This document shows positions 3,814-32,123 of a stretch of 42,489 nt of DNA, piece after piece (positions within the stretch are counted from its first letter, which is position 1; the number at the start of each line of letters is the position of its first letter). The translations under genes and the position numbers were made by a program. Origin of the DNA: a virus; IMG/VR virus record IMGVR_UViG_3300005043_000002; one strand, given 5' to 3'. The notes beneath the pieces are model-generated. The model worked only from the letters and a program-made list of their open reading frames with translations, was not told the origin of the DNA and made no database searches.

Positions 3814-3972
3814 CTATTTTTTTGCGTTTAAATCAACAGGGGGTTTTTCACTGCGTTCTGTACAGCATCTTACGACCTTACCATCCTGAAAAGTGAACAT
3901 GACCGAGCCGTGCAGCTTATTTTCTGTTTCACGTTCTAAAACTTCTTTAATCCAGACTATATTTTCTATCAT
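3814..3972 (-). CDS. Small YezD/DUF2292-like protein (52 aa from the coupled ATG)
   Basis: ATG at 3972 overlaps the MuF-like TGA (ATGA). The pattern HGSVMFTFQDGKVVRCCTERSEK resembles the YezD core GS..I.VQDGK..Q.E..EK. Confidence 0.45.
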   Translation of the reverse strand: MIENIVWIKEVLERETENKLHGSVMFTFQDGKVVRCCTERSEKPPVDLNAKK

Positions 3973-4910
3973 TCTATCAACGCTATTGCCACGCACCTAC
4001 AACCGAAATCTTCCGAAGGGTGTGCGCGCATCCCTGTTTTACGGTTTACAATTGGTGGAGTATCCCACGTATGAACCGTTCCATCAAGTATTTCATGGTC
4101 TGGACGCACTCTTTCAGCGTCGGCAGTTGACCAACGATATTTAGTTATCCCCAAGCCATCATAACGAGTTTCACGATATTTGGCCAAGAGTAGGGACGTT
4201 TCCTGTCTTGCCAAAAATCTAGCCTTGCGCGTTGATACGCCGTAATTATCTTGAATGAATTTAATCATGTCCCCAGAACGACGGCCCTCGAATACATTAG
4301 TTTGTACGGCCTCACGCAGTTTTATGATATTCTCAGAAGTCCAATCCTTGATATATTTATCGAGATTCATCCCCCATTCTGAGGCAAGGCGGGCAACCAT
4401 ATCCTGCGTAACATTAGGCGCGATTGCAATGCTCTTCATGGTATGAGCGAAATCCGTTCCCATATCATCAATCACACCGACATAAGTATCTGGAATAGTG
4501 GACAGACCATCAATTCTTTTCACGTCCATCGTGTTGATGGTTTGCAACATTCTTCTTTGCATGCCCTCATATGAAGCCTTGACCTGTACTTGAGCGGCGG
4601 CAAGATTGGGAGGCAACCCGCCTACAAGCGTCCATGTCTTGGATGGTCGGTTATAGACCGCGCCCATTCTCTTAAGCTCTTTACTTATTCTAGCGTTGTA
4701 TGTTCCATGGAATTTATCGCCGTCATACCAGATTTTTCCAGAGGTGAGCGCGTCCGCAATGATACCGCCTGCATTGGTCAATTCTTTAGGCTCAAGATTC
4801 AACGCTTCAATAATAGGGCGATACATAATCTCATAGAACAGTTTATTGATTTCTTTTTCTATATCTAAGAAATACGAATCTTTCAAATACATCGGCGGGA
4901 TTTGTCTCAT
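3969..4910 (-). CDS. Head morphogenesis protein, Mu F / SPP1 gp7 family
   Basis: 313-aa ORF with the C-terminal signature WSTADAERVRPDHEILDGTVH...HPSEDFGCRCV, typical of Phage_Mu_F minor head proteins. Confidence 0.85.
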   Translation of the reverse strand: MRQIPPMYLKDSYFLDIEKEINKLFYEIMYRPIIEALNLEPKELTNAGGIIADALTSGKIWYDGDKFHGTYNARISKELKRMGAVYNRPSKTWTLVGGLPPNLAAAQVQVKASYEGMQRRMLQTINTMDVKRIDGLSTIPDTYVGVIDDMGTDFAHTMKSIAIAPNVTQDMVARLASEWGMNLDKYIKDWTSENIIKLREAVQTNVFEGRRSGDMIKFIQDNYGVSTRKARFLARQETSLLLAKYRETRYDGLGITKYRWSTADAERVRPDHEILDGTVHTWDTPPIVNRKTGMRAHPSEDFGCRCVAIALIE

Positions 4911-6082
4911 TACTGAAAAGTCGCTCTTGGTGGTATGGCTTGCCTGATATTGGCGTCACTTGGATCACTTAAGTCAGACGCCGCACCACGCATTGTCACA
5001 GTTGCGAGCGGTGTTGTACCGGATAAAACAGGCAACACGACGAAAGTTTCGCTTATGATACCGAGTATCGCGCCCGCCTCGGAATTGTAAGACTCTGGGC
5101 CTATCTGTACAGCTATTTGATTGCTGTCGACCACCATAAACACACGGTTGTTTACATATTGGTTTGTTGTCAATGAACCTTGTGGAAGCGCATCGGCAAA
5201 AACAGCCGTACCATCGTCAAACACACCCGCAGGTATTGTTGTTTGGGCAATCAATTTACCCTCTACATTATCCGTAACAGTCCATCCGATAAACATTACA
5301 GGCGCCACAAGTGCCGAACTTGCGATCATGTTGGGGTCTTTATTATCATTCCGCGCATTAACACCATGCAGATAAAAATCACCTTCGGCTTTATCGAGGC
5401 TCAACGTACCGGAGTTGCCAGTTATAACGTTTTGACCTTTAGTTGCACAATTAATCGCACCTTGACAGAACGACATGTCGGCAAGTGACATCAAAGCGTT
5501 GGCAATAGATACAGGTGTGAATCCTGATATACCAGTGATGGTCGTATTGTTTGGGTGGGTTAAAATCGCAACACCAACATGATCCCTTAAGAATGCCCCG
5601 CTTTGCAAAGACGTCGCTTGCGTTAGAACACATGAGCTATCGATATAAATAAACGATGCGCTGTCTGTGGTTATATTGGTGACAGAAACATCATCAAACG
5701 CTCCACAAGACACAACAGAGGTTGTTGCGTCGGTTGGGGTTGTATACGCGTTTGTGAACATATGAGCGCCGGAGGTGATATCAAATAAAGAAGCGTCTCC
5801 ACCGTCTATTGTCGGAATAGACGTATTCTGGGGATCGATCATTCCTGTCGGTAGAACCGAAGTATACGAATTCAAATCCTCTGGGAATACGGCACTGTCG
5901 CTCATATTGATGTCGATTTCTCGAACATCTTGGACGCTTACTTGTCCAGAGATATTATCCGGTAGATCAGTATTAATCTGCGTTTGCATATCTGCGCGAG
6001 TTTTTACCTCTGCGAAAGAACTGATAGAGCATACCAACCCTAATCCCATTATTACCACTGCATATAATATATTCTTTTTCAT
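4910..6082 (-). CDS. 390-aa protein with N-terminal signal-peptide-like segment; function unknown (possible fiber-like or envelope protein)
   Basis: N-terminus MKKNILYAVVIMGLGLVCSISSFA-EV (positive-hydrophobic-AxA-like). It is followed by LPDNISGQVSVQDVREI, a motif common at the N-termini of phage fibers. S/T/N/G-rich. Stop shares one nt with the MuF-like ATG (TAATG). Confidence 0.65.
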   Translation of the reverse strand: MKKNILYAVVIMGLGLVCSISSFAEVKTRADMQTQINTDLPDNISGQVSVQDVREIDINMSDSAVFPEDLNSYTSVLPTGMIDPQNTSIPTIDGGDASLFDITSGAHMFTNAYTTPTDATTSVVSCGAFDDVSVTNITTDSASFIYIDSSCVLTQATSLQSGAFLRDHVGVAILTHPNNTTITGISGFTPVSIANALMSLADMSFCQGAINCATKGQNVITGNSGTLSLDKAEGDFYLHGVNARNDNKDPNMIASSALVAPVMFIGWTVTDNVEGKLIAQTTIPAGVFDDGTAVFADALPQGSLTTNQYVNNRVFMVVDSNQIAVQIGPESYNSEAGAILGIISETFVVLPVLSGTTPLATVTMRGAASDLSDPSDANIRQAIPPRATFQ

Positions 6083-6100
6083 AGTCTAAACTCCTTAAAT

Positions 6101-6445
6101 TTATCTAAATCCATCGCCAAACCCAGAACCGAAACCCGATCCAAGTGTCAATTCGTTGGCTTCAATACCGCTCAAAATTACGCTTGTTACTGTTGCGTTT
6201 TCCTCAATATACAGGAAATTATGGACATAATTGAAAAAACCAGACCCCACAAAACCCGCGCCGCCTTCTATTATATTCATTCCTGTAGGTGCAGGCAAGG
6301 GGTCAGATTGAGACATGTATATATTCACATCTCCGCCTATAACCTCAATCGACGGTTTGAGCTGTTCAACACCAAGACCAGTGACCCGCACTTCGTACAG
6401 TGTGTTGACTTGTATTTCAACTTGATACCGGATGCGTAATGTCAT
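6101..6445 (-). CDS. Hypothetical 114-aa protein, paralog of 7500..7814, with GSGFGSGFGDGF tail
   Basis: By eye about 55-60 percent identical to 7500..7814 over about 65 aa (GVEQ..PSIE.IGG.V.IY.SQ..P..APTGMNII.GGA.FVGS). Confidence 0.7.
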   Translation of the reverse strand: MTLRIRYQVEIQVNTLYEVRVTGLGVEQLKPSIEVIGGDVNIYMSQSDPLPAPTGMNIIEGGAGFVGSGFFNYVHNFLYIEENATVTSVILSGIEANELTLGSGFGSGFGDGFR

Positions 6446-6447
6446 TT

Positions 6448-6756
6448 TTATACATAAGTCCTTGCTACATCTATCGCGTCAAGTCGTGCTATCTCAGCAG
6501 CAGTTAATTCTGGCAAGAGGTCGGACACGTGCCAGTTTGTAACATGCCAGAAATCATCTTCCAGAAATGGCGCATTCCACATTTTTAGAGTGGCTTTTTT
6601 TGGTTCATCTTTGCCTGTAAGTCTGTTTTTTCCAATGATACCACCGTCTTTGGCAATAGAATAACCCGCAGCAATTGCACGCTCTTTGAAAATTTCGAAC
6701 AGTACAACAGCAATACGAACCGCCTTATCTTTGCTTGAGCATTTTATTTTTTCCAT
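6448..6756 (-). CDS. Hypothetical 102-aa protein
   Basis: ORF tightly packed between neighbours (stop at 6448, next start at 6445). No recognisable motif. Confidence 0.6.
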   Translation of the reverse strand: MEKIKCSSKDKAVRIAVVLFEIFKERAIAAGYSIAKDGGIIGKNRLTGKDEPKKATLKMWNAPFLEDDFWHVTNWHVSDLLPELTAAEIARLDAIDVARTYV

Positions 6757-7500
6757 TTACACACCATATCTTCCATAATAACCGTTAACATCACTAATGA
6801 CAGTCGGTGTCTTAATATCTGAGTAAACCACCAATTCGCCCATTCTGTCATGGAACGGTCTACTACCGCCAGCACTTGATGAGCCGAATGTAGTTATTCC
6901 GGCTGTATAATTAGCGTCAACTGCGTTCGATGTATCAGATACGCCGTTTATAAATATTTCACTGCCAACGGTTCCACTTGTTACAGTTATGACATAACTT
7001 GTACCTGTGCTTAAATTGACCGATCCATTTAATTTCACAGATTGGTTTGAATTGACAACTTGAACAATATTTGAAGGTGTGTCATTTATTCTTATCAGAA
7101 GCGACCCCGTTAACCCTCCGACTATCGCACTTTCATTTGAACTGAAATCATCGCTATTGATAACATTAAATACTGTGTAGTTAAGACTCACAAGCGCAGG
7201 TATCTCAAGAACATCAGTGTCGTATACCAATACGTCAATCGGCCCAATTTGCGCACCAGTTAGGACAGGTCTTAAACCTACAACAACTTGAGATGCGTCA
7301 TTGCCCGAACCTGATTTATCCGCAATATTTGATACAACACCAAGAACCTCTGTCACGGTTGCGGGATCTGATTGGTCTATCCAACAAATCAAATTTGGGT
7401 AGTCAGTCGGCAGTACAACAGGTGCAGCCGCGCCACTACCTAGAAGCGCACCCAAGGATAACCCTAAAATTCCACCTAATACAGCGCCGAGTTTTGCCAT
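6757..7500 (-). CDS. 247-aa protein with N-terminal Gly-zipper hydrophobic segment and a possible LamG/concanavalin-like C-terminal domain
   Basis: N-terminus MAKLGAVLGGILGLSLGALLGSGAAAP. The C-terminal FHDRMGELVVYSDIKTPTVISDV resembles the LamG end motif (F.G.I.E..VY...L). The ATG shares one nt with the upstream stop. Confidence 0.6.
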   Translation of the reverse strand: MAKLGAVLGGILGLSLGALLGSGAAAPVVLPTDYPNLICWIDQSDPATVTEVLGVVSNIADKSGSGNDASQVVVGLRPVLTGAQIGPIDVLVYDTDVLEIPALVSLNYTVFNVINSDDFSSNESAIVGGLTGSLLIRINDTPSNIVQVVNSNQSVKLNGSVNLSTGTSYVITVTSGTVGSEIFINGVSDTSNAVDANYTAGITTFGSSSAGGSRPFHDRMGELVVYSDIKTPTVISDVNGYYGRYGV

Positions 7501-7814
7501 TACACGACCTCAACAGGATCAAGACCAGCGACAATAATACTTGTGGTCGTTCCGCCAGCTTGCGTGACCCATAGATAGTTATGAATATACTCAAATTTAG
7601 CCGACCCAACAAACGCCGCGCCTCCGTCAATTATATTCATTCCAGTAGGGGCGGAGACGGGCGTATCTTGTGACACATATATGTCAACCGTTCCGCCGAT
7701 CGTTTCAATGGATGGTGCGATTTGCTCCACTCCTGCGGGCATAGACCTGACAACATATAGCGTATCAAGTGCAAGCACCTTTTGGTATCGTTGTCTGTCG
7801 ACTGGTATTGTCAT
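7500..7814 (-). CDS. Hypothetical 104-aa protein, paralog of 6101..6445
   Basis: See 6101..6445. DNA-level similarity is also visible (7615-7655 versus 6250-6300). Confidence 0.7.
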   Translation of the reverse strand: MTIPVDRQRYQKVLALDTLYVVRSMPAGVEQIAPSIETIGGTVDIYVSQDTPVSAPTGMNIIDGGAAFVGSAKFEYIHNYLWVTQAGGTTTSIIVAGLDPVEVV

Positions 7815-7834: not shown

Positions 7835-9193
7835 TTATTGCGTCGGAGTTCCGACAGTGAATTGACCCGTTAGGGGTTCTAATGCTTCGCGTTTTGTGTC
7901 GACCTCTGTGGCCAATAAATGATCATGATTTACATTTTCCGCCCATTCCGTGCGGTCTATTGCGCCTGATTGATAAGACGACATATTACGATTAAATTTA
8001 GAATTCTTAACCTCTTCCTCTTCGACAGCGTTCAACTGCTTGAGAGGATTCCACGAGATCGAGAGATCATCAGGCACAAACCCGAAAAGATGCTGGCAAC
8101 ATATGGCCAATAGGTCAATGACTTGAAACTTGCTCTTTGCGCGTATTTCACCCTCAACCATTGAATTATAATTCTGCAAATCATCTTCGCCAGATGAAAA
8201 ACCAGTGGAGGGAATGCCGAACAGCTTGGACATGGGCATTTTAAGATCAGATGCAACCTGCATGCGTATCTCACTCATGACCTCACCTAAACCAGTAAAT
8301 GACATTTTCTTTTGGTCGTAATCATCGTCGGCGTCCATAGTTATGGCGTTGATATAATTTTTGACTTGGTTCGCCTGTTGTACACGTTGGACAACTTGGG
8401 CCGTCCCATTAGCGGACAACATAGCAGTATTGAAGCCTTTGATCTTGAATACGTCAACTTTGGCCTCGTCGATCAACTCAAACAAGACATTCTGATTTTT
8501 CATGTACTGATTAATAGAACGCACCAAACGCTCAAGTTCTGACATGCCCCAACCGCGCAAACGCTGGCGAATGAAAGCAGGGGCTTCTTTGCCCTTAATT
8601 TTATACACTCGAGTCTTATTGACAATCGTTCCATAATAATTATAGAAATCGCCTTGCTGGTCGTAAGGGTCTGCAACCGCATTCATCGAAGGATTACCGA
8701 CCGCGCCAGAGCCGACCATCTCCCACATATCCAAACCACGAAACGCGAGTTTTCCGCCTTCTTTGATTGACTCGATTTTGAATTCTGTTTGTGGGTTTTG
8801 CCCTGTGATTATGAGAATACCACCGCCGCCATACAGTCTGGCCCACTTGAGCGCATCACGTAGAGCACCAATAACGTTATTGCGCTCAATGTACATTTCG
8901 AGCTTGTCCAGTTCGGCAGGTTCTAATTGATCGGTAACAATCTCAAAGCCCGTACTGAAAGCATCATCGACAGGTTGGTCCACCAAAGTTTGCACAATAC
9001 CATGCTCGACATACATCTGTGAGAGTAGGTTGCGATCATTAGAAACAAGATTATAGCGCAGATTATAATACAGCGAGTCGGTACGGCCAACAAATGCGCC
9101 TGTACCAAAAGGGTTAGTGAATGCACTTGTAAAACTGTTGAGTGAATTAACAACTGGTTCCGACAAGCTCGATGTAGTTTTTAAATTGTTCAT
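7835..9193 (-). CDS. Portal protein (DUF1073 type)
   Basis: 452-aa ORF. The size, position and patterns such as ALKWARLYGGGGILIITG match DUF1073 portals, which pair with DUF2213/DUF2184 capsid modules. Confidence 0.8.
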   Translation of the reverse strand: MNNLKTTSSLSEPVVNSLNSFTSAFTNPFGTGAFVGRTDSLYYNLRYNLVSNDRNLLSQMYVEHGIVQTLVDQPVDDAFSTGFEIVTDQLEPAELDKLEMYIERNNVIGALRDALKWARLYGGGGILIITGQNPQTEFKIESIKEGGKLAFRGLDMWEMVGSGAVGNPSMNAVADPYDQQGDFYNYYGTIVNKTRVYKIKGKEAPAFIRQRLRGWGMSELERLVRSINQYMKNQNVLFELIDEAKVDVFKIKGFNTAMLSANGTAQVVQRVQQANQVKNYINAITMDADDDYDQKKMSFTGLGEVMSEIRMQVASDLKMPMSKLFGIPSTGFSSGEDDLQNYNSMVEGEIRAKSKFQVIDLLAICCQHLFGFVPDDLSISWNPLKQLNAVEEEEVKNSKFNRNMSSYQSGAIDRTEWAENVNHDHLLATEVDTKREALEPLTGQFTVGTPTQ

Positions 9194-9236: not shown

Positions 9237-9449
9237 TTACTTAGTATCAAGAATAGAGGGCTGTTTGATTTCTCGAAGAATATCCCGAAGCTCTGCATAT
9301 GCCAAAAGCAACGTACACCATATGAAGGAAAGAAATAGTCTACCTAAATTCATTTCATCCAAAGCGTATGATTGGTAAAAGACTATGAACAGGGCAAACC
9401 CTGCAAATCTTATAAGTTTGGTTTTGGTTATTATTGGGTTGAGGGTCAT
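9237..9449 (-). CDS. Small membrane protein (70 aa, two hydrophobic helices)
   Basis: Hydrophobic segments FAGFALFIVFYQSYAL and LFLSFIWCTLLLAYA. ATGA overlap with the upstream gene. Confidence 0.6.
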   Translation of the reverse strand: MTLNPIITKTKLIRFAGFALFIVFYQSYALDEMNLGRLFLSFIWCTLLLAYAELRDILREIKQPSILDTK

Positions 9450-9805
9450 GATTGGTTTTCTCCTGTTGTTATTTTGTAGATTTCATATGCAGCCTCATGA
9501 AGATAATCATCATGGTAATCACAAGATTCATTAAGGTAATCTTTTATAGCTGTAACATGTTCTAGTTTAGGTTCTTTAGGCACAAGCACGTGTGTGTCTA
9601 GTAGTGCTAGAGCTTCTCTCAATGCAATAATATCAGGGCAAAGGCTTCTGTCATAGAAATGTGTTTCAATCCCCAGAGTTAAAGCTGCCTTTAATTTATC
9701 ATTAGGTGTCATCGGTTTACTCTCATGATTGCGCGCTAATTTAGACTCCTCATTCTTGGATTTATTATAACGGGCTATGCCGCCATCTCTATCGTAGTGA
9801 CTCAT
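9446..9805 (-). CDS. Hypothetical 119-aa protein
   Basis: ORF coupled by ATGA overlaps at both ends. Confidence 0.6.
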   Translation of the reverse strand: MSHYDRDGGIARYNKSKNEESKLARNHESKPMTPNDKLKAALTLGIETHFYDRSLCPDIIALREALALLDTHVLVPKEPKLEHVTAIKDYLNESCDYHDDYLHEAAYEIYKITTGENQS

Positions 9806-9942
9806 GTATCCACCTCAAGCACATATCCCGCCATATCACAGAACAGTTGATCCTCGGTGGGCGACAGGAGTTCATTACGTTCGAGTTTGGTTTTCGCGGT
9901 CAAGTATGCGAATAGTTTCCGTTTGTCTATGATGTTGGTCAT
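9802..9942 (-). CDS. Hypothetical 46-aa protein (below the ORF-track cutoff)
   Basis: Hand translation: MTNIIDKRKLFAYLTAKTKLERNELLSPTEDQLFCDMAGYVLEVDT. The ATG at 9942 shares one nt with the upstream TAA, and the TGA overlaps the next ATG. Confidence 0.5.
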   Translation of the reverse strand: MTNIIDKRKLFAYLTAKTKLERNELLSPTEDQLFCDMAGYVLEVDT

Positions 9943-10106
9943 TATAGTTTTCCTCTGTATGTTAACCTGTCCCAAGATTTGGGGTTCATATATCTATGTC
10001 TACCTGTAATTCCCCACCATAATCTTTCCCAACGGTTCATGCGCATTATTGCCCAACCTATGCGCCAATATCTTTCGTCGCGTATTTTTTCTTCGATGCT
10101 GGTCAT
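9942..10106 (-). CDS. Hypothetical 54-aa W/R-rich protein (below the ORF-track cutoff)
   Basis: Hand translation: MTSIEEKIRDERYWRIGWAIMRMNRWERLWWGITGRHRYMNPKSWDRLTYRGKL. The ATG at 10106 overlaps the upstream TGA. Confidence 0.5.
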   Translation of the reverse strand: MTSIEEKIRDERYWRIGWAIMRMNRWERLWWGITGRHRYMNPKSWDRLTYRGKL

Positions 10107-10291
10107 TTTTTCACCTTCACAATATGATAGCCGTTGGTGGTTAGGTGGCTCAAAAAATGGGCGATAACCACGGCCTCTCTTTTATTAATTTGGCGATAGC
10201 CCAATGCGAATTGTGCCTTGTCGAAATCACCAATAATATTGGGACATTCTTTATCAATGTCTACAATTTCCATTTCTATTATGTTGGTCAT
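10103..10291 (-). CDS. Hypothetical 62-aa protein, C-terminal paralog of 10288..10596
   Basis: Start moved to MTNII (ATGA overlap with the upstream stop). The C-terminus LSHLTTNGYHIVKVKK matches LDYLTANGYQLIKVKK of the neighbour. Confidence 0.6.
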   Translation of the reverse strand: MTNIIEMEIVDIDKECPNIIGDFDKAQFALGYRQINKREAVVIAHFLSHLTTNGYHIVKVKK

Positions 10292-10596
10292 TTTTTCACC
10301 TTTATGAGTTGGTAGCCGTTGGCGGTTAGGTAGTCTAAGGTGGCATTGCACCCACCATCAAAACCAAATTTCATTCCAATATTCCTGCCGACCATCGTGG
10401 TTCTGAGTTCTTCAATATCCACAAGTTCCATGGCCACCATAGGCGATTTAACATCAGGCATAGGGGTATCTGAGCTTACAGGTGGCAACGAGGATTTAAA
10501 CAGTTTAGTATCTATGCATTTTTCACATTTTCCGCAAGCTGTTCCAAGTGCCCAACAGCCACGACATATAACGCCATTGTATTTATTCTGTGTCAT
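10288..10596 (-). CDS. Hypothetical 102-aa protein with N-terminal Cys cluster (CxxC...CxxCxxC)
   Basis: Start moved to MTQNKYNGVICRGCWALGTACGKCEKC. Overlaps the 3' end of the Lar-like gene by 14 nt. Confidence 0.6.
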   Translation of the reverse strand: MTQNKYNGVICRGCWALGTACGKCEKCIDTKLFKSSLPPVSSDTPMPDVKSPMVAMELVDIEELRTTMVGRNIGMKFGFDGGCNATLDYLTANGYQLIKVKK

Positions 10597-10969
10597 TTTT
10601 AAGCCCTTCAAGTTTGAACATACCGCCAATAAATTTTTTCGCGTCTTCAATTTCAGAATCAGCAAGTCTCACGAAACCAAAGAATGAATACGAATCGTGG
10701 CAACCAAGTTCACCCGTTTCAAATGATCGCTTCAATATTTTATATAGATTTTCATCTTCTTTTGATGGTTTACACTCTGGCCGTGTGTTCCAGTCGCCCT
10801 CTGTTGTAGCACCGCAGTTATTACATGCTGGCTTGTGTTGTATATAATCTGCGATATCATCGTCCGCCCAGCTCATCTCTCGCGCTCTAAACTCTGGCTT
10901 AAAACTGGCTACGCCTTCGGGGTCGATATCCGTTGATCCGCAAAACGGACAGGGTTTTAAATTAGTCAT
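10583..10969 (-). CDS. lar: Lar-family restriction-alleviation-like zinc-ribbon protein with C-terminal extension
   Basis: MTNLKPCPFCGS...ACNNCGATTEGDWNTRP matches the Lar-family pattern (CPFCG...C..CG......WNTR). Start moved to the Met preceding this motif. Confidence 0.65.
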   Translation of the reverse strand: MTNLKPCPFCGSTDIDPEGVASFKPEFRAREMSWADDDIADYIQHKPACNNCGATTEGDWNTRPECKPSKEDENLYKILKRSFETGELGCHDSYSFFGFVRLADSEIEDAKKFIGGMFKLEGLKNDTE

Positions 10970-11062
10970 GCTAAATGCCTTATCGTTAAAATTGGTATGA
11001 ACAAGAACCACCAGCGCACCTGTAGAACGGGGCGACCATCTTGCTGTATTTGTTTGGACGTT

Positions 11063-11266
11063 CTAGTTATTATCATTTTTCATATCCTCCGCTTTCTTGA
11101 TTGCTGAGTCTCGCAATAAGTTTAAATTGCCCCACTCGTCAATATGCGCATCACTTTTTTCAGATAAATACTTTGAGTATTCCAAAGCCACAAGCAACTC
11201 ACCCGCTAAGTTCTCAAACCGCAACGCACGAGCGGCGCAGTCTTCAATGTCTTTTTCGGTTGTCAT
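11063..11266 (-). CDS. Hypothetical 67-aa protein
   Basis: Start moved to MTTEKDIEDC, whose ATG overlaps the TGA of the upstream micro-ORF. Confidence 0.55.
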   Translation of the reverse strand: MTTEKDIEDCAARALRFENLAGELLVALEYSKYLSEKSDAHIDEWGNLNLLRDSAIKKAEDMKNDNN

Positions 11267-11367
11267 GATGTGCCCCCTAATATGTAAACATACATGTAAA
11301 TTGTAATGATCACGAAGACCACACATGCTAGAGATGCGAAGACTAAGTTGAATATAAAATTTCTCAT
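11263..11367 (-). CDS. 34-aa single-pass membrane micro-protein (untracked)
   Basis: Hand translation: MRNFIFNLVFASLACVVFVIITIYMYVYILGGTS. GGGAG lies 8 nt upstream. ATGA overlaps at both ends. Confidence 0.5.
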   Translation of the reverse strand: MRNFIFNLVFASLACVVFVIITIYMYVYILGGTS

Positions 11368-11528
11368 TTGGTTTGCTCCCATGTAAAAAATTGTCTTTCG
11401 GCGCAATAACTACCTTTCGCGCCTATTGTCTGATCCATAGTATCGAAGTGGACAGTTTTAACGCACCTGCCCATGACGAACACTGTAGATAATCCCATGA
11501 TTAAACCGAGGGCCATTGCTATTTTCAT
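11364..11528 (-). CDS. 54-aa protein with N-terminal hydrophobic anchor (untracked)
   Basis: Hand translation: MKIAMALGLIMGLSTVFVMGRCVKTVHFDTMDQTIGAKGSYCAERQFFTWEQTK. The ATG overlaps the upstream TGA. Confidence 0.5.
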   Translation of the reverse strand: MKIAMALGLIMGLSTVFVMGRCVKTVHFDTMDQTIGAKGSYCAERQFFTWEQTK

Positions 11529-11851
11529 ATTCCACCCTCCGCATAAGCCTGTTCCATTTCGTAGGATTCACCGTAAACCTTATCGCTTGGCTCGAAACCT
11601 TCGTCATCATAAAACGTTTCACCGTTTTCGTTATGTTGAAGAGACAGGAAACCAGCGCAAATCTTTGAACCTTCATCGACGCGGTTGTCTTCGTCCTCTG
11701 TTTCGCTGTCCAGTGTCTTATGACAATAGAATGTGTTGTACGGGTTCTGAGCTGCATAAGCTAATTCTTCGCCACGCTCTGGACGTAGGAACGGTTTAAC
11801 GTCTGACCGATACGGGCATTGAGCGCAGGGTTTTTTTATGAAATCGCTCAT
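11525..11851 (-). CDS. Cys-rich hypothetical protein (DUF6283-like)
   Basis: N-terminal PCAQCPYRSD...YCHKT...CAGF pattern. 108 aa. Confidence 0.55.
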   Translation of the reverse strand: MSDFIKKPCAQCPYRSDVKPFLRPERGEELAYAAQNPYNTFYCHKTLDSETEDEDNRVDEGSKICAGFLSLQHNENGETFYDDEGFEPSDKVYGESYEMEQAYAEGGI

Positions 11852-12129
11852 GATGCGCCCGTCGCTTTCTTGATTGCGTCACGAATAGGCGTTAAATGAG
11901 CGTCGCCAATATCAGGATTGGCCGCGATTATCTTTAGAGCATATTCCAACGCCTCCAACATATCAGGGGCGGCCGATATCAGGCGCAAAATTCCGTTGTG
12001 TTTATCCATAGATACTTCATCCTGTGATATCACAGTGACCGATAGTTCGAATTCATCGGTATTTAAACTGGTGATTCTCTGGTCTGAGTTCGTTTGCTCA
12101 ATACTGAAAGATATTGGTTTGTTAGTCAT
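11848..12129 (-). CDS. Hypothetical 93-aa protein with the common phage motif AAPDMLEALE
   Basis: LISAAPDMLEALEYAL resembles the widespread A-A-P-E-L-L-E-A-L phage family of unknown function. Confidence 0.6.
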   Translation of the reverse strand: MTNKPISFSIEQTNSDQRITSLNTDEFELSVTVISQDEVSMDKHNGILRLISAAPDMLEALEYALKIIAANPDIGDAHLTPIRDAIKKATGAS

Positions 12130-12339: not shown

Positions 12340-13629
12340 TTATAAAACATCGAAAATAGATACGTCTGCGGTGATGTAATCGGCCAGCGCATAACGAGTT
12401 GCGTCAATATAATGATTCCAGTTATCAATAATCACAGGCAGAATTTCTTGTGTGTTTTTATCGACCTTATACGAGTACTTGGTTAATTCTTCAATCGTCT
12501 TAACACATCTCGGATGCACAAATATGTTATTAAACGACCTTAAATATTCAACTCCGTCTTCAACGCTGCCTTTCCACTTTGGCGCGCCCTCTACATTAAA
12601 TCCTTGCTTGCTCACATGGGATATCGTTTCGGGCCTTGAACAGTCACCGTATATTTTCCAACGCTTGGACTCTGGCACTGATCGGAACATCGTACCTATA
12701 TCATCCAACTCAACACCAACGCCGCCCGCCTCATAATCTATATATAAATTCTTCTGTCCATTTTCGAGCATGATGTACATGCGTACCAGAGTCGTAGGAT
12801 CGTTCGCGAATCCCCAATCTGCACCGAAGAAAAAACGGGTTTGGTATAATTCAGTGAGGGCAGGCGTCTCGAAATCCAGTTCCTTCCATTTTCCATGGAA
12901 AACAATTTGCTCTGCACGACCGACGGCCTCACCCATGTATTCATGATCGTATTTCATGCGGTCGGATTTCTTCAACGCCTCCGCATCTGCTATAAATTTC
13001 TGTCCTAACCATTCGGGCGGAACGTCTAAATATGTGGAGTGGTGGACGATCCTGTCGCCGTATGCTTTGTTCTCGCATTCTTTGTTGACCCATGCGGCCG
13101 GATCATTCGGCGGGTTGTATGTGATAAACTCCACAAACTTATCACCACCACGCAAAACGGATTGTTGGACGTTTCTTATTTCGTCCATACCATAGAATTC
13201 GGCGGCCTCTTCAAACCACAGGAATTTGAAATAACCTTGCTTAACATTTATCGACTTGAGCTTGAGTGGATTATCTAGCCCCTTCATTATGATTTTTTGG
13301 CCAGTGGGTAGGTATGTGATTTCAGGCGGTGATTTCGTATGAGAGAAAAACGCATCTACCTTAAGCATACTAATCGCCCATAAAAGCGTTTCAAGAACCG
13401 ATGTCCTGATCGTCTCCCCAACCTTACGAACCACAAGCGCGTTTGCGTCGGGATCTTCTATCATCCCTAATATTATCTGTATGGCGGCGAAAGACGATTT
13501 AGTCGATCCACGTCCGCCCTTGAGCCAGATTGAAACCGTGGCCTTTAATCTTATTCTGCGATGGATAGGATAGAAGACGGGGGCGATAACTGTTTTAAGA
13601 GATACCTCAGTCATCGTCTGGAATATCAT
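12340..13629 (-). CDS. terL: Terminase large subunit
   Basis: 429-aa ORF with Walker A-like KGGRGSTKS, a nuclease-half pattern, and a position after terS. An alternative coupled start lies at 13614 (ATGA with the terS stop). Confidence 0.85.
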   Translation of the reverse strand: MIFQTMTEVSLKTVIAPVFYPIHRRIRLKATVSIWLKGGRGSTKSSFAAIQIILGMIEDPDANALVVRKVGETIRTSVLETLLWAISMLKVDAFFSHTKSPPEITYLPTGQKIIMKGLDNPLKLKSINVKQGYFKFLWFEEAAEFYGMDEIRNVQQSVLRGGDKFVEFITYNPPNDPAAWVNKECENKAYGDRIVHHSTYLDVPPEWLGQKFIADAEALKKSDRMKYDHEYMGEAVGRAEQIVFHGKWKELDFETPALTELYQTRFFFGADWGFANDPTTLVRMYIMLENGQKNLYIDYEAGGVGVELDDIGTMFRSVPESKRWKIYGDCSRPETISHVSKQGFNVEGAPKWKGSVEDGVEYLRSFNNIFVHPRCVKTIEELTKYSYKVDKNTQEILPVIIDNWNHYIDATRYALADYITADVSIFDVL

Positions 13630-29745: not shown

Positions 29746-30051
29746 TTATTTGATCTCCAATTCTTCGGCGCGTAATTGAGCGGTTTCCGTGGTTGTTTTG
29801 CATAAGTTATTTAATACCAGTAATTCGTCGGTTGAGTTTTTAAACTCAGAGATTACCTTGTTCTTATTCTCTTTTGAAACAATCCCAGCCTTATAAGATT
29901 CAATCAACGAATCGGCCGCGACCTCTATAGATGCCGTGGAAATCTCGACTTGTTTCGTGCATGAAACGCCCGTGATCTTCTCTGTGATCATGGATAATGT
30001 AGAGCAACCGGATAACAATAAAACGCTAAGTATTAAGATTTTCATAAGCAT
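29746..30051 (-). CDS. Lipoprotein (101 aa); possible o-spanin-like or exclusion lipoprotein
   Basis: Signal sequence plus lipobox: MLMKILILSVLLLSGC. Confidence 0.6.
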   Translation of the reverse strand: MLMKILILSVLLLSGCSTLSMITEKITGVSCTKQVEISTASIEVAADSLIESYKAGIVSKENKNKVISEFKNSTDELLVLNNLCKTTTETAQLRAEELEIK

Positions 30052-30295: not shown

Positions 30296-30679
30296 TTAAT
30301 AAGACCAAATCGTAGGGGATATAAAACCGTCTTCTTCTGTAGCAGTCCCTATATGTATAAATCTACCGTGTCCTTTTTGCTTAAACCCTATGCGAGTAAA
30401 ACCAAATAATGGTGCGGCTTTCATAATATTATACGCTGTTTCACCTCTGCATGCAATATCGACAGCTTTACCTAGAGTATGCTCACCGGATTTAGATTTT
30501 TTAGCTTCTATAGGGTGAGTGGGGTGTCTGTAACCGGACGAAATAAATAAAGCTATTCCCAGACTTGTTCGCAGAGTTTGCAATTTGTCCATAAAATTCT
30601 TATTCATGAAACATTCGCCCGTGTGTGAACAGGTAAATTCATATTCTGAAAAATTATAGTACTCGTCCCAATTTATCAT
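30296..30679 (-). CDS. Endolysin, peptidase M15 (zinc D-Ala-D-Ala / L-Ala-D-Glu peptidase-like)
   Basis: SGYRHPTHPIEAKKSKSGEHTLGKAVDI...FIHI fits the M15 H-x(n)-D...H zinc motif. Start moved to MINWDEY, where the ATG overlaps the upstream TGA. Confidence 0.7.
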   Translation of the reverse strand: MINWDEYYNFSEYEFTCSHTGECFMNKNFMDKLQTLRTSLGIALFISSGYRHPTHPIEAKKSKSGEHTLGKAVDIACRGETAYNIMKAAPLFGFTRIGFKQKGHGRFIHIGTATEEDGFISPTIWSY

Positions 30680-31008
30680 GTCGCCGCACTCACTATAGCC
30701 CACGCCCATTTTGCACACCAAGCGAGAAAACCCATTATAATCGCACCACATGCGCCAGCACCCATCATCGCACCTTTTGAAATTTTATGGTTATCGTTTA
30801 AAGTTTCAACAACTGGCTCTATTTTTGTGACACGGTTTATAACGTCTTTTAATTCATACGCTTGATCGCGTTGGTTGTCCCGAACTTCATAAACCGTGGT
30901 TTTAACATCTTTAATGTCTGTTTTTACATCTCTTACAACATCGATTAAATCATTTATTTTTTCAGTCATTACACCAACCTGCACTTTTGTCGCTAAGAAG
31001 TCTGTCAT
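30676..31008 (-). CDS. XhlA-like protein (N-terminal coiled coil, C-terminal transmembrane segment)
   Basis: Architecture only: heptad-rich INDLIDVVRDVKTDIKDVKTTVYEV followed by GAMMGAGACGAIIMGFLAWCAKWAWAIV. Confidence 0.4.
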   Translation of the reverse strand: MTDFLATKVQVGVMTEKINDLIDVVRDVKTDIKDVKTTVYEVRDNQRDQAYELKDVINRVTKIEPVVETLNDNHKISKGAMMGAGACGAIIMGFLAWCAKWAWAIVSAAT

Positions 31009-31361: not shown

Positions 31362-32123
31362 TTATGCGTTTATAATTAATGAGGTGAAAACCATGCGCCA
31401 ACTGGCAAGAGTGATATTTACTGTTGTTCCAATGACGGAATCCTGTTTATTGATAGCGACACCACTACTTGATTGTTGGACAAATATATCTGTTGCATCG
31501 CTCAACAATGTTAAACCTTGATTGTTATCATTGGATTGTGCCATTACAGCCGTGTAATTAATCCTATCGCCTATTGAATATCCATGTTCAGCAGTTTGAC
31601 AAACCAATTCAATAACCACAATATCAGGTTTTGCACTCAAAGTATGGGCAACTGTTAACGTCCCAGCATTAACAATTGTTTGTTCAGACGAAACATTCCT
31701 TTGACCCTTAGAGGATATATCACCAAGATATTCCCAGCTTGCATTATCCGCTTGTGACGGCAGCGCGTTCCCTTGGTTCGTGTTTATCTTTGATCCGTAT
31801 AATTCATATGTTGCCGTTTTCTTGACGATAGAATTCGCGTGGTATTCTGTACCTGTGTCGTACTCTGGAATACCCTCTTGTAAAACGTAACCAATTTGGT
31901 TAGTCATAACAAAATGAATTGCATTAAAATCTTGAAACGTTGGGATTTCTGTACCAGCAAGAGCCGCCGCCGCCCAACCTGTGGCCCAATCGGCAGTTTG
32001 AATATTCGATAAATCTGTGGAATACACAGGTGTACCGCTCGCAGGTGATCCATATTCCGTGATACCTGTCGCGCCTGCGGTCAATCCAAATATTTCTTGG
32101 GTTTTTCTTGGGATTTTAGTCAT
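31362..32123 (-). CDS. Tail fiber protein
   Basis: The N-terminal block IFGLTAGATGITEYGSPASGTPVYSTDLSNIQTADWATGW...FQDFNAIHF...YVLQEGIPEYDTGTEY is a widely conserved fiber N-terminus. It follows the baseplate genes. Confidence 0.65.
   Translation of the reverse strand: MTKIPRKTQEIFGLTAGATGITEYGSPASGTPVYSTDLSNIQTADWATGWAAAALAGTEIPTFQDFNAIHFVMTNQIGYVLQEGIPEYDTGTEYHANSIVKKTATYELYGSKINTNQGNALPSQADNASWEYLGDISSKGQRNVSSEQTIVNAGTLTVAHTLSAKPDIVVIELVCQTAEHGYSIGDRINYTAVMAQSNDNNQGLTLLSDATDIFVQQSSSGVAINKQDSVIGTTVNITLASWRMVFTSLIINA

What the first reader, a model, noticed from the sequence alone, without database searches (positions are those of the whole stretch)
4910..7814. Five-gene cassette inserted between portal and MuF-like genes: two paralogs flanking a membrane-anchored LamG-like protein, plus a signal-peptide protein
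Portal and Mu F/SPP1 gp7-type genes are normally adjacent. Here 2.9 kb intervenes, with every gene coupled to the next:
- A 104-aa and a 114-aa protein, roughly 55-60 percent identical over about 65 residues by eye (GVEQ..PSIE.IGG.V.IY.SQ..P..APTGMNII.GGA.FVGS), bracket the next two genes.
- A 247-aa protein with a Gly-zipper hydrophobic N-terminus and a possible LamG-like C-terminal domain.
- A 102-aa protein of unknown function.
- A 390-aa S/T/N-rich protein with a cleavable-looking signal peptide (MKKNILYAVVIMGLGLVCSISSFA), followed by a fiber-like LPDNISGQVSVQDVREI motif.

Secreted or membrane-anchored proteins in the middle of a head-assembly operon are unexpected. Possible roles include capsid-attached fibers using cryptic anchors, an envelope-targeted exclusion or receptor-masking module, or a new assembly factor set.
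Basis: partly seen in the sequence, partly recalled or inferred. Interest (0 to 1): 0.65.

Follow-up and report, generated by a model that had tools for sequence, protein, structure and literature searches.

The report
Swappable adhesin-like cassette in phage head operon
The five genes are real and are this phage's own version of a swappable gene cassette that some related phages carry between their portal and head-assembly genes; it pairs a previously undescribed small "anchor" protein with sugar-binding or tail-fibre-tip proteins, one of which here unusually carries an export signal.

Summary
Five tightly coupled minus-strand genes (4910-7814) lie between the portal (PF06381) and MuF genes. 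pA and pB are paralogs (54% identity over 97 aa, E=3e-37).

The segment is an insertion. Among 76 related loci, 37 have portal and MuF adjacent, 7 have a single pA gene, and 8 carry multigene cassettes that all differ.

pA/pB define an unannotated ~100-aa all-beta family: 108 clusters, AF2 pLDDT 92.7, no Pfam, PHROG or PDB match. In other phages the domain is fused N-terminally to LamG, the same protein type encoded just downstream of pA here.

Cargo genes at this junction are of tail-fibre or tailspike type: LamG, an SGNH esterase, pectate-lyase-like proteins, and p390. The p390 core is an exchangeable fibre tip in a Mu-like phage.

The best reading is a hypervariable, late-expressed anchor-plus-adhesin cassette.

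The LamG "membrane anchor" is doubtful, because it aligns with an arginine-rich LGxx repeat in a relative. The p390 signal peptide is better supported: it is a canonical 24-aa extension absent from all 16 homologs, ending where seven free-standing homologs begin. No trained predictor could be run.

Whether the proteins sit on virions or act in the envelope remains unresolved.

The parts
7835..9193 (-). Portal gene (upstream flank of the cassette)
   Evidence: PF06381 Phage_portal_3 E=3e-63; phrog_146 E=2e-78
7500..7814 (-). pA: 104-aa member of a new all-beta ~100-aa family; proposed anchor/adaptor for LamG247
   Evidence: Paralog of pB. 108 clusters in the 1.84-billion-protein library. AF2 pLDDT 92.7, pTM 0.83. 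No Pfam, PHROG, NCBIfam, PADLOC or PDB match. Fused to LamG in P0089, P0124 and the L028 559-aa protein.
6757..7500 (-). LamG247: ConA-like/LamG domain protein, first cargo; its start codon overlaps the pA stop
   Evidence: PF13385 27.8 bits (GA 27.6); phrog_10356 virion structural protein 3e-6. Homologs L018 LamG254 (31%, E=3e-12) and L009 257 aa.
7423..7500 (-). LamG247 residues 1-26: (LGxx)5 Gly-zipper, hydrophobic N-terminal segment
   Evidence: KD15 = 2.18. Aligns with the Arg-rich LGRSLGRSLGRTLGEK of L018.
6448..6756 (-). p102: orphan 102-aa soluble protein, role unknown
   Evidence: No hit in Pfam, PHROGs, NCBIfam, PADLOC, or tblastn of the phage collection.
6101..6445 (-). pB: 114-aa paralog of pA with a Gly/Phe-rich C-terminal tail (TLGSGFGSGFGDGFR, encoded at 6104-6148); proposed anchor/adaptor for p390
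   Evidence: 54% identity to pA. HMM A4 match over residues 1-99.
4910..6082 (-). p390: signal-like peptide, conserved 45-aa N-terminal motif, then a fibre-tip-type core domain; second cargo
   Evidence: 16 homologs at 28-63% identity. phrog_5668 tail fiber 3e-5. Match inside the DLP_6 1775-aa tail fibre. 30 BFVD hits to large phage proteins. Tail-fibre loci in L002 and L003.
6011..6082 (-). p390 residues 1-24, MKKNILYAVVIMGLGLVCSISSFA: Sec/SPase-I-type signal-like extension
   Evidence: Absent from all 16 homologs; the seven free-standing ones start at residue 24/25. The profile match begins at residue 26. KD15 = 2.42. Net charge +2, 21-residue uncharged run, Ser at -3, Ala at -1, Glu at +1. 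AAGGAG lies upstream of the ATG.
3969..4910 (-). MuF-like head morphogenesis gene (downstream flank); its start overlaps the p390 stop
   Evidence: PF04233 E=2e-17; phrog_324 E=3e-31

Best explanation
The segment is this phage's version of a hypervariable accessory cassette at the portal|MuF junction, found in a minority of a broad clade of phiPLPE/phi1422-like 'dwarf' myoviruses. In the pA-containing versions the recurring element is a previously unannotated ~100-aa all-beta domain (pA/pB family). The variable elements are glycan-binding or glycan-degrading proteins, or fibre-tip proteins, of the kind used in tail fibres and tailspikes. I infer that pA-type proteins act as anchors or adaptors, with one copy per cargo: pA with LamG247 and pB with p390. 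I also infer that the genes are co-transcribed and translationally coupled with the head genes, so they are made late and in step with structural proteins. By default the products are most likely accessory adhesins or enzymes attached near the head or neck. In this phage one cargo, p390, has gained a canonical Sec-type signal peptide placed at the start of an otherwise complete fibre-tip protein. It is therefore probably diverted to the cell envelope late in infection, where a receptor-binding domain could bind or mask envelope glycans or receptors. Shown: the insertion, the paralogy, the family, the fusions, the cargo types, the gene coupling and the uniqueness of the signal. Inferred: anchoring, virion location, export and masking.
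For: Insertion and variability. Of 76 de-duplicated related loci, 37 have adjacent genes, 7 have a single pA gene, and 8 have multigene cassettes that all differ.

pA as a partner of cargo. pA-LamG fusion proteins P0089 and P0124 carry Laminin_G_3 above the gathering score. L028 has four pA domains, two of them fused to LamG. pA stop codons overlap the next gene's start. The window and L017/L018 both have two pA copies, each upstream of a cargo gene.

Cargo type. p390 core: phrog_5668 tail fiber; part of the DLP_6 tail fibre; 30 BFVD hits to large phage proteins including Mtd-N, S74 and RBP annotations; an alternative tip on a shared tail-fibre N-terminus in L003. Relatives' cargo: SGNH esterase above GA, phrog 'tail protein' 2e-19, pectate-lyase-like.

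Late coupling. There is no internal terminator and promoter-like sites are not meaningfully above chance.

Signal peptide. It is an extension absent from 16 of 16 homologs, with its boundary at the Met1 of the seven free-standing ones. The n/h/c layout is canonical. A strong Shine-Dalgarno sequence precedes it. None of the 26 proteins scored (relatives' cassettes plus the L009 module) has a hydrophobic N-terminus.
Against: There is no direct evidence that any of these proteins is in a virion or is exported.

pA has no structural neighbour that would place it on a capsid or neck.

Three cassettes in relatives lack pA (L037, L090, L058), and seven relatives have pA with no cargo. pA is therefore neither required for cargo nor dedicated to it.

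An exported p390 could not bind a cytoplasmic pB, which sits awkwardly with the one-adaptor-per-cargo idea.

The p390 model is only moderate (pLDDT 62), and no trained signal-peptide predictor was available.

p102 is unexplained.
Confidence: 0.5

Rival explanations
1. All cargo proteins, including p390, are virion components. The hydrophobic or Gly-rich N-termini are not export signals. They are docking or oligomerisation peptides that bind the pA/pB anchors, possibly captured co-translationally through the coupled genes.
For: Gly-plus-hydrophobic short repeats recur at the N-termini of cargo directly downstream of pA genes. Examples are window LamG247 (LGxx)5, L017 LamG254 LGRSLGRSLGRTLG, L121 596 aa GLFGKVGLFCQKGLFWQKGLFGNK, and L015 113 aa LFGGASFGDGS. 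A similar repeat forms the C-terminal tail of pB. The charged L018 version cannot be a membrane helix. p390 gained its extension in the one lineage where it sits behind a pA-family gene.
Against: The p390 N-terminus has no repeat and shows no significant similarity to the LamG247 N-terminus (p about 0.14-0.2). It fits the Sec signal layout in every respect. Two cargo proteins directly after pA genes (L018 201 aa, L028 198 aa) lack any such peptide.
Confidence: 0.25
2. One reading: the cassette as a whole is an envelope-targeted module for superinfection exclusion or receptor masking. LamG247 is anchored in the inner membrane and p390 is secreted to the periplasm. pA, pB and p102 are cytoplasmic helpers.
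For: Two of only four strongly hydrophobic N-termini in the genome lie in this cassette. LamG247 residues 4-26 are uncharged with KD19 of at least 1.6. The p390 signal is canonical. The host may be Gram-negative, given the lipobox lipoprotein next to the endolysin. Known exclusion proteins such as T5 Llp, phi80 Cor and T4 Sp are exported (general knowledge).
Against: Homologous cassettes in relatives encode no hydrophobic N-termini on cargo (0 of 26 proteins scored). The LamG247 segment aligns with a charged repeat. No PADLOC hit was found. No integrase or lysogeny module was seen, and the genes are embedded in the late operon without their own promoter or terminator. That is atypical for exclusion morons, although late-acting masking is conceivable.
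Confidence: 0.15
3. The five genes are head-assembly factors (chaperones, scaffolding accessories or portal-associated proteins) needed for capsid morphogenesis.
For: They lie between portal and MuF and are translationally coupled to both. A single pA gene sits at this position in 7 relatives.
Against: About half of the relatives, which have the same portal, MuF, protease, cement and capsid genes, have nothing at the junction. The cargo domains are carbohydrate-binding or fibre-type, not assembly-type.
Confidence: 0.05

Closest known systems
Modular receptor-binding proteins with a conserved N-terminal anchor and exchangeable distal domains (T7 gp17, P2 gpH and Mu gpS types; anchor-branch tailspike systems of Klebsiella and N4-like/G7C phages)
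   Same: Conserved anchoring modules are combined with swappable glycan-binding or glycan-degrading tips. The p390 core is seen here on at least five different N-termini, including a bona fide tail-fibre anchor. Cargo types include SGNH esterase, beta-helix and LamG.
   Different: The locus is in the head/packaging operon, not the baseplate or fibre locus. The anchor candidate (pA) is a separate ~100-aa protein of a family absent from Pfam and PHROGs. Attachment to any virion site is not shown.
Capsid or neck accessory adhesins (T4 Hoc, T5 pb10, phi29 gp8.5 head fibres, T4 whiskers, lactococcal neck passage structure)
   Same: These are dispensable, variable, surface-exposed binding domains encoded in or near head genes, with a small capsid-binding module plus a distal binding domain. 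The pA-LamG fusions have that architecture.
   Different: There is no sequence or fold match to any of these proteins. The window already has a separate cement/decoration gene at 2210-2650. Location on the capsid is inferred from gene position only.
Metaviromic islands: hypervariable host-recognition islands of environmental phages (Mizuno et al. 2014, PMC3909814)
   Same: A few-kb segment differs among otherwise syntenic relatives and is enriched in carbohydrate-binding, lectin-like and fibre genes.
   Different: The variability is defined here by comparative synteny, not by read recruitment. The position between portal and MuF, with a recurring pA element, was not described there.
Exported phage proteins encoded within late operons (lambda Lom and Bor, T5 Llp, phi80/N15 Cor, T4 Spackle)
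   Same: A signal peptide on a protein encoded among structural genes, with possible action at the receptor or envelope.
   Different: Those proteins are unrelated to RBPs in sequence, and most are expressed early or from prophages. p390 is a full-length homolog of fibre-tip proteins with a grafted signal. My literature searches found no report of an exported RBP homolog. No PADLOC match was found.

Membership tests
Laminin_G_3 / ConA-like lectin-glucanase (PF13385), for LamG247 | Profile score at or above the Pfam gathering score | tested here: met
   27.8 bits against GA 27.6, residues 107-235. The margin is small, but related proteins back it: P0089 30.3 bits, P0124 29.9 bits, L009 257 aa 21.5 bits, and the four-protein alignment.
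Sec/SPase I signal peptide, for p390 residues 1-24 | Positively charged n-region, hydrophobic h-region of roughly 10-20 residues, and small neutral residues at -3 and -1 | tested here: met
   MKK (+2); 21-residue uncharged run; KD15 = 2.42; Ser at -3, Ala at -1, Glu at +1.
Sec/SPase I signal peptide, for p390 residues 1-24 | Positive call by a trained predictor (SignalP, DeepTMHMM) or experimental export and cleavage | not testable with these tools
   No predictor or experiment was available. Indirect support: the extension ends where the seven free-standing homologs begin.
Bacterial lipoprotein signal (SPase II), for p390 | Lipobox [LVI][ASTVI][GAS]C | tested here: not met
   The sequence is G-L-V-C with Val at -1. 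By contrast, the window gene 29746-30051 has a proper LLSGC lipobox.
N-terminal transmembrane anchor, for LamG247 | An uncharged hydrophobic stretch of about 20 residues that stays hydrophobic in homologs | tested here: inconclusive
   The window segment passes hydropathy (KD15 2.18, KD19 at least 1.6). The aligned segment in the L018 homolog carries 3 Arg plus Glu/Lys. L009 and L028 homologs lack it.
Phage tail fibre / receptor-binding protein, for p390 | A distal domain homologous to domains of established tail fibres | tested here: met
   phrog_5668 3e-5. Residues 91-379 match inside the DLP_6 tail fibre protein. 30 BFVD hits. P0014 carries the domain on a tail-fibre N-terminus in the baseplate locus.
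Phage tail fibre / receptor-binding protein, for p390 | An N-terminal domain that anchors the fibre to the baseplate or tail, and a gene located in the tail module | tested here: not met
   The p390 N-terminus is a signal-like peptide plus a 45-aa motif shared with free-standing homologs encoded between TerS and TerL. The gene lies in the head operon.
Known head decoration / cement families (Pfam and PHROG head-and-packaging models), for pA/pB | A sequence or fold match to a known decoration protein | tested here: not met
   No Pfam or PHROG hit. No PDB sequence hit. Best Foldseek E=0.03; a Carin1 capsid chain matches at probability 0.44 only.
Known anti-phage defence / exclusion systems (PADLOC) | A match to any PADLOC model | tested here: not met
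   0 hits for all five proteins at E<=0.05.

The most novel reading that the evidence does not exclude
p390 is a Sec-exported, full-length copy of a phage receptor-binding (fibre-tip) domain, made late in infection. In the envelope it would bind the receptor glycan or its periplasmic biosynthetic intermediates. That would mask or deplete the receptor, protecting the infected cell from superinfection or sparing progeny from futile adsorption to debris. This would be a new class of exclusion factor derived directly from an RBP. LamG247 would act as a membrane-tethered partner.
Probability: 0.2. Interest if true: 0.8.

Novelty: new variant of a known kind. Interest (0 to 1): 0.55.

Why it matters
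Host-recognition genes are usually sought in the tail module. This result shows a recurrent second hot spot for adhesin- or depolymerase-type genes inside the head/packaging operon of a widespread phage clade. It also defines a sizeable, confidently folded domain family (pA) with no annotation, which is the obvious candidate docking module.

If pA anchors exchangeable binding proteins to the capsid or neck, it would be a natural display scaffold. It would also be a new determinant of host range and of adhesion to surfaces.

If p390 is truly exported, it would be the first case I am aware of in which a receptor-binding domain has been re-targeted to the envelope. That would suggest a simple evolutionary route from an RBP to an exclusion factor.

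The finding also offers a possible explanation for why packaging regions appear in hypervariable islands of marine phages.

Tried and rejected
- **Nucleotide search of the phage collection:** no match.
- **tblastn of pA and p102 against phages:** nothing.
- **Word-index protein search for LamG247:** returned only itself. For pA it returned only two relatives. The exhaustive profile search was needed to reveal the family.
- **phi1422 gp46 at the same junction:** unrelated to any cassette protein.
- **Foldseek against PDB:** nothing significant for p390 (best E=0.011, HFTV1 tail fibre) or pA (best E=0.03). PDB profile searches were empty.
- **PADLOC and NCBIfam:** no hits.
- **Is the L009 92-aa protein, or any small post-portal gene in relatives, a divergent pA?** No HMM support.
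- **Does the p390 signal derive from the LamG247 N-terminus?** Not significant at the DNA or protein level.
- **Conserved mature N-terminal motif of p390 against phages:** only E of 0.2 or worse, to a neck-module gene of Klebsiella phage VLCpiS11a. I kept this as a weak lead only.
- **Locus scans:** those with the broad pA alignments failed for lack of a conserved stretch, and the scan with P0089 found nothing in viral contigs.
- **Lipoprotein reading of p390:** rejected, because there is no lipobox.
- **Alternative internal start codons for p390 (Met12, Met32):** rejected, because they lack a Shine-Dalgarno sequence while the annotated ATG has AAGGAG.

Full report
**1. The observation.**
The window is a complete-looking myovirus-type phage genome of about 42.5 kb. 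On the minus strand it encodes TerS, TerL, portal, MuF, a DUF2213 protease/scaffold, a cement protein and the major capsid protein. Tail sheath, baseplate and lysis genes also lie on the minus strand, at the other end of the window.

- pA, 7500-7814
- LamG247, 6757-7500
- p102, 6448-6756
- pB, 6101-6445
- p390, 4910-6082

They are packed as tightly as possible. There are two 1-nt TAATG overlaps, one direct abutment, and spacers of 2, 18 and 20 nt with Shine-Dalgarno sequences. No minus-strand terminator-like site lies inside the segment.

pA and pB are paralogs: 54% identity over 97 residues, E=3e-37. LamG247 reaches the Pfam Laminin_G_3 gathering score by a small margin (27.8 against 27.6 bits).

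In a hydropathy scan of 62 window genes, only four have a strongly hydrophobic N-terminus. Two are p390 and LamG247. The others are a lipobox lipoprotein next to the endolysin and a 54-aa peptide.

**2. It is an insertion at a variable junction.**
The closest deposited phage is Bdellovibrio phage phi1422 (portal 43.5% identical). It belongs to the phiPLPE-like dwarf myoviruses, whose terminase-portal-head order is conserved (PMC3391216). phi1422 has one unrelated HTH gene at this junction.

I gathered relatives from viral contigs, metagenomes and genomes using the portal and measured the portal-to-MuF interval. The 76 de-duplicated loci break down as follows:

| Content of the junction | Loci |
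|---|---|
| Portal and MuF adjacent | 37 |
| One small unrelated gene | 18 |
| A single pA-family gene | 7 |
| A few small genes | 6 |
| Multigene cassette (1.4-5.4 kb) | 8 |

The median gap is 191 bp.

The eight cassettes all differ:
- window: pA, LamG, p102, pB, p390
- L015: pA, 113 aa, 400 aa, 123 aa
- L017/L018: pA, 201 aa, pA, LamG254, 515 aa
- L028: pA-LamG fusion, pA, 198 aa, pA-LamG-LamG fusion, pA
- L121, a prophage-like region in the isolate Dyadobacter psychrotolerans AR-3-6: pA, 596 aa, 91 aa, 71 aa
- three cassettes without pA: L037, L090, L058

The cassette is therefore neither universal nor ancestral. This junction is a hot spot for cargo.

**3. The pA/pB family.**
The word-index search found only two relatives. 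A profile search over 1.84 billion representative proteins found 108 clusters, 44 of them at E<=1e-10. Nearly all are stand-alone proteins of 91-127 aa.

The family has no Pfam, PHROG, NCBIfam, PADLOC or PDB sequence match.

With a 79-sequence alignment, AlphaFold gives a confident compact all-beta domain (pLDDT 92.7, pTM 0.83). It has no significant PDB neighbour. The best hits are CBM, cupin and jelly-roll type sandwiches at E>=0.03.

Three longer members are informative. P0089 (549 aa), P0124 (308 aa) and the L028 559-aa protein each carry the pA domain at the N-terminus, followed by LamG. Laminin_G_3 scores 30.3 bits in P0089 and 29.9 bits in P0124, both above the gathering score. In the window and in L018, the gene that follows pA with an overlapping start codon is a LamG protein. 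This gene-fusion link argues that pA and LamG work together, with pA as the proximal module.

pA genes typically end in EV or EVV and overlap the start of whatever follows, whether MuF or a cargo gene. In L020 a pA gene lies elsewhere. It sits just after a 978-aa protein with a LamG-like stretch and just before the sheath module.

Among all loci in hand, pA occurs only in this myovirus clade.

**4. The cargo.**
p390 has 16 metagenomic homologs. Their alignment shows one conserved core, from about residue 78 to the C-terminal IRQAIPPRATFQ, attached to at least five kinds of N-terminus.

Genomic contexts:
- In L003, a Mu-like contig, the core is the tip of a 505-aa protein. That protein shares its first ~190 residues with the neighbouring tail-fibre gene, after the baseplate genes and before the endolysin.
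- In L002 it follows the tape measure.
- In Stenotrophomonas phage DLP_6 it lies within a 1775-aa annotated tail fibre.

It matches phrog_5668, 'tail fiber protein'.

The AF2 model is only moderate (pLDDT 62). It still finds 30 BFVD proteins at E<=1e-3, all large phage proteins. The few with names include Mtd N-terminal domain, Peptidase S74 and receptor-binding protein. Nothing in the PDB is significant.

Free-standing forms of 355-368 aa, with the same 45-aa N-terminal motif as mature p390, lie between TerS and TerL in several podovirus contigs. A shorter 338-aa form lies just upstream of TerL in another (L022). One of these contigs, L009, also has a LamG-like 257-aa gene two genes upstream.

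Cargo in the relatives' cassettes is of the same functional kind:
- an SGNH/GDSL esterase with an endosialidase-barrel-like domain (L037, above GA)
- a PHROG 'tail protein' match at 2e-19 (L121)
- a pectate-lyase-like protein (L018, below GA)
- weak tail-protein and baseplate-protein matches (L015, L028)

The junction therefore collects host-surface-interaction genes. This matches the content of the hypervariable 'metaviromic islands' described for marine phages (PMC3909814).

**5. The two hydrophobic N-termini.**

*p390.* The seven free-standing homologs of 355-368 aa start with Met at the position of p390 residue 24/25 (M-T-x-x-TRADLK against SSFA|EVKTRADMQ). The family profile starts matching at residue 26. 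So MKKNILYAVVIMGLGLVCSISSFA is an extension found in none of the 16 homologs.
- It is preceded by AAGGAG at the right distance.
- The identical protein is carried on at least four contigs, so it is not an assembly artefact.
- Its layout is canonical for a Sec/SPase I signal: +2 n-region, a 21-residue uncharged run, Ser at -3, Ala at -1, Glu at +1.
- It has no lipobox.
- It shows no significant similarity to the LamG247 N-terminus.

I could not run SignalP. On the sequence and comparative evidence, I put export at about 60%.

*LamG247.* Residues 4-26 form a perfect (LGxx)5 glycine zipper and pass a hydropathy threshold. They align position for position with LGRSLGRSLGRTLGEK in the L018 homolog, which has three arginines and cannot span a membrane. 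Other LamG relatives lack the segment.

Similar Gly-plus-hydrophobic short repeats occur at the start of the L121 596-aa cargo (GLFGKVGLFCQKGLFWQKGLFGNK) and the L015 113-aa cargo, and at the C-terminus of pB. This suggests a docking or oligomerisation peptide rather than an anchor. I rate the membrane-anchor reading at about 35%.

None of the 26 proteins scored (the relatives' cassettes plus the L009 module) has a hydrophobic N-terminus. Whatever these two segments do, they are specific to this phage.

**6. Best explanation and rivals.**
I conclude with fair confidence that the segment is a lineage-specific version of a hypervariable, late-expressed cassette pairing pA-type modules with adhesin, enzyme or fibre-tip cargo.

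Its site of action is inferred. The default is virion attachment near the head or neck, based on three points:
- gene position next to portal or neck genes
- coupling to structural genes
- the fusion architecture

p390 was probably re-targeted to the envelope by its grafted signal.

The main rival is that nothing is exported and the N-termini are docking peptides (0.25). An assembly-factor role is unlikely (0.05), because about half the relatives lack these genes.

**7. Novelty.**
Modular anchor-plus-tip host-recognition proteins and hypervariable recognition islands are both known. Four things are new here:
- the location inside the portal-MuF junction
- the unannotated pA family as a recurring partner, with fusion evidence
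- the recurrence of fibre-tip genes inside packaging modules of unrelated phages
- a fibre-tip protein with a signal peptide, for which my literature searches found no precedent

I classify it as a new variant of a known kind, of moderate interest (0.55). It has a lower-probability but high-interest reading, that p390 is an exported RBP acting as an exclusion factor.

Noticed in passing
window 9237-12129 (minus strand): A second lineage-specific insertion. About ten small ORFs lie between TerL (12340-13629) and portal. The TerL-to-portal gap is 3146 bp here, against at most 1247 bp (mostly 80 bp or less) in 25 relatives. Only DUF6283 (11525-11851) is recognised. The segment includes a 54-aa hydrophobic peptide at 11364-11528.
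   Followed up: partly
window 29746-30051 (minus strand): A 101-aa protein with a textbook lipoprotein signal (MLMKILILSVLLLSGC). It lies about 250 bp downstream of the M15 endolysin (30296-30751) and near a 110-aa protein with a C-terminal hydrophobic segment (30676-31008). It may be an o-spanin, which would imply a Gram-negative host.
   Followed up: partly
window 31362-32123 (minus strand): The only candidate tail fibre after the baseplate J and DUF2612 genes is just 253 aa and matches no family. A short fibre could mean that host recognition relies partly on proteins encoded elsewhere, such as this cassette.
   Followed up: no
L005, L006, L007, L009/L010, L022: Homologs of p390 sit between TerS and TerL, or directly upstream of TerL, in at least five podovirus-type contigs (PF12236 portal). 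Mizuno et al. 2014 reported unexplained under-recruitment of terminase genes in marine phage variable islands. Fibre-tip genes embedded in the packaging module might contribute to that.
   Followed up: partly
L003 8411-11518: Two consecutive tail-fibre genes share a near-identical ~190-aa N-terminal anchor and have unrelated C-terminal tips, one of them of the p390 type. A 96-aa gene lies between them. This looks like a dual-fibre or alternative-tip arrangement in a Mu-like contig.
   Followed up: partly
L121 (Dyadobacter psychrotolerans AR-3-6, NZ_SMFL01000002), L116/L153 (Elusimicrobium simillimum), and MAG contigs binned as Bdellovibrio, Micavibrio, Vampirovibrio and others: The portal clade occurs in prophage-like regions of cultured isolates from very different phyla, and in many MAG bins of predatory or epibiotic bacteria. 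L121 offers a cultivable system carrying pA plus a 596-aa cargo.
   Followed up: partly
window 7423-7500 and 6104-6148; L018 6297-6350; L121 8616-8700; L015 9614-9670: Short Gly-plus-hydrophobic repeats recur at the N-termini of cargo genes that directly follow pA genes, and at the C-terminus of pB. Examples are LGxx, GLFxxK and GSGF/GDGF. Some versions are uncharged and others are Arg/Lys-rich. Their function is unknown.
   Followed up: partly
L001 10377-10706 (phi1422 gp46): The gene annotated 'putative sigma-54-dependent transcriptional regulator' is a 109-aa protein with only a Fis-type HTH-like segment. It sits at the same portal|MuF junction. The annotation is probably over-specific.
   Followed up: no
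L026 3998-4612 (Klebsiella phage VLCpiS11a gp49): The conserved mature N-terminal motif of p390 (also phrog_3614, E=1.4e-3) weakly resembles (E=0.2) the start of a 204-aa hypothetical protein encoded between the head-tail adaptor and Neck1 genes. This is a weak hint that the motif is used by neck-associated proteins.
   Followed up: partly
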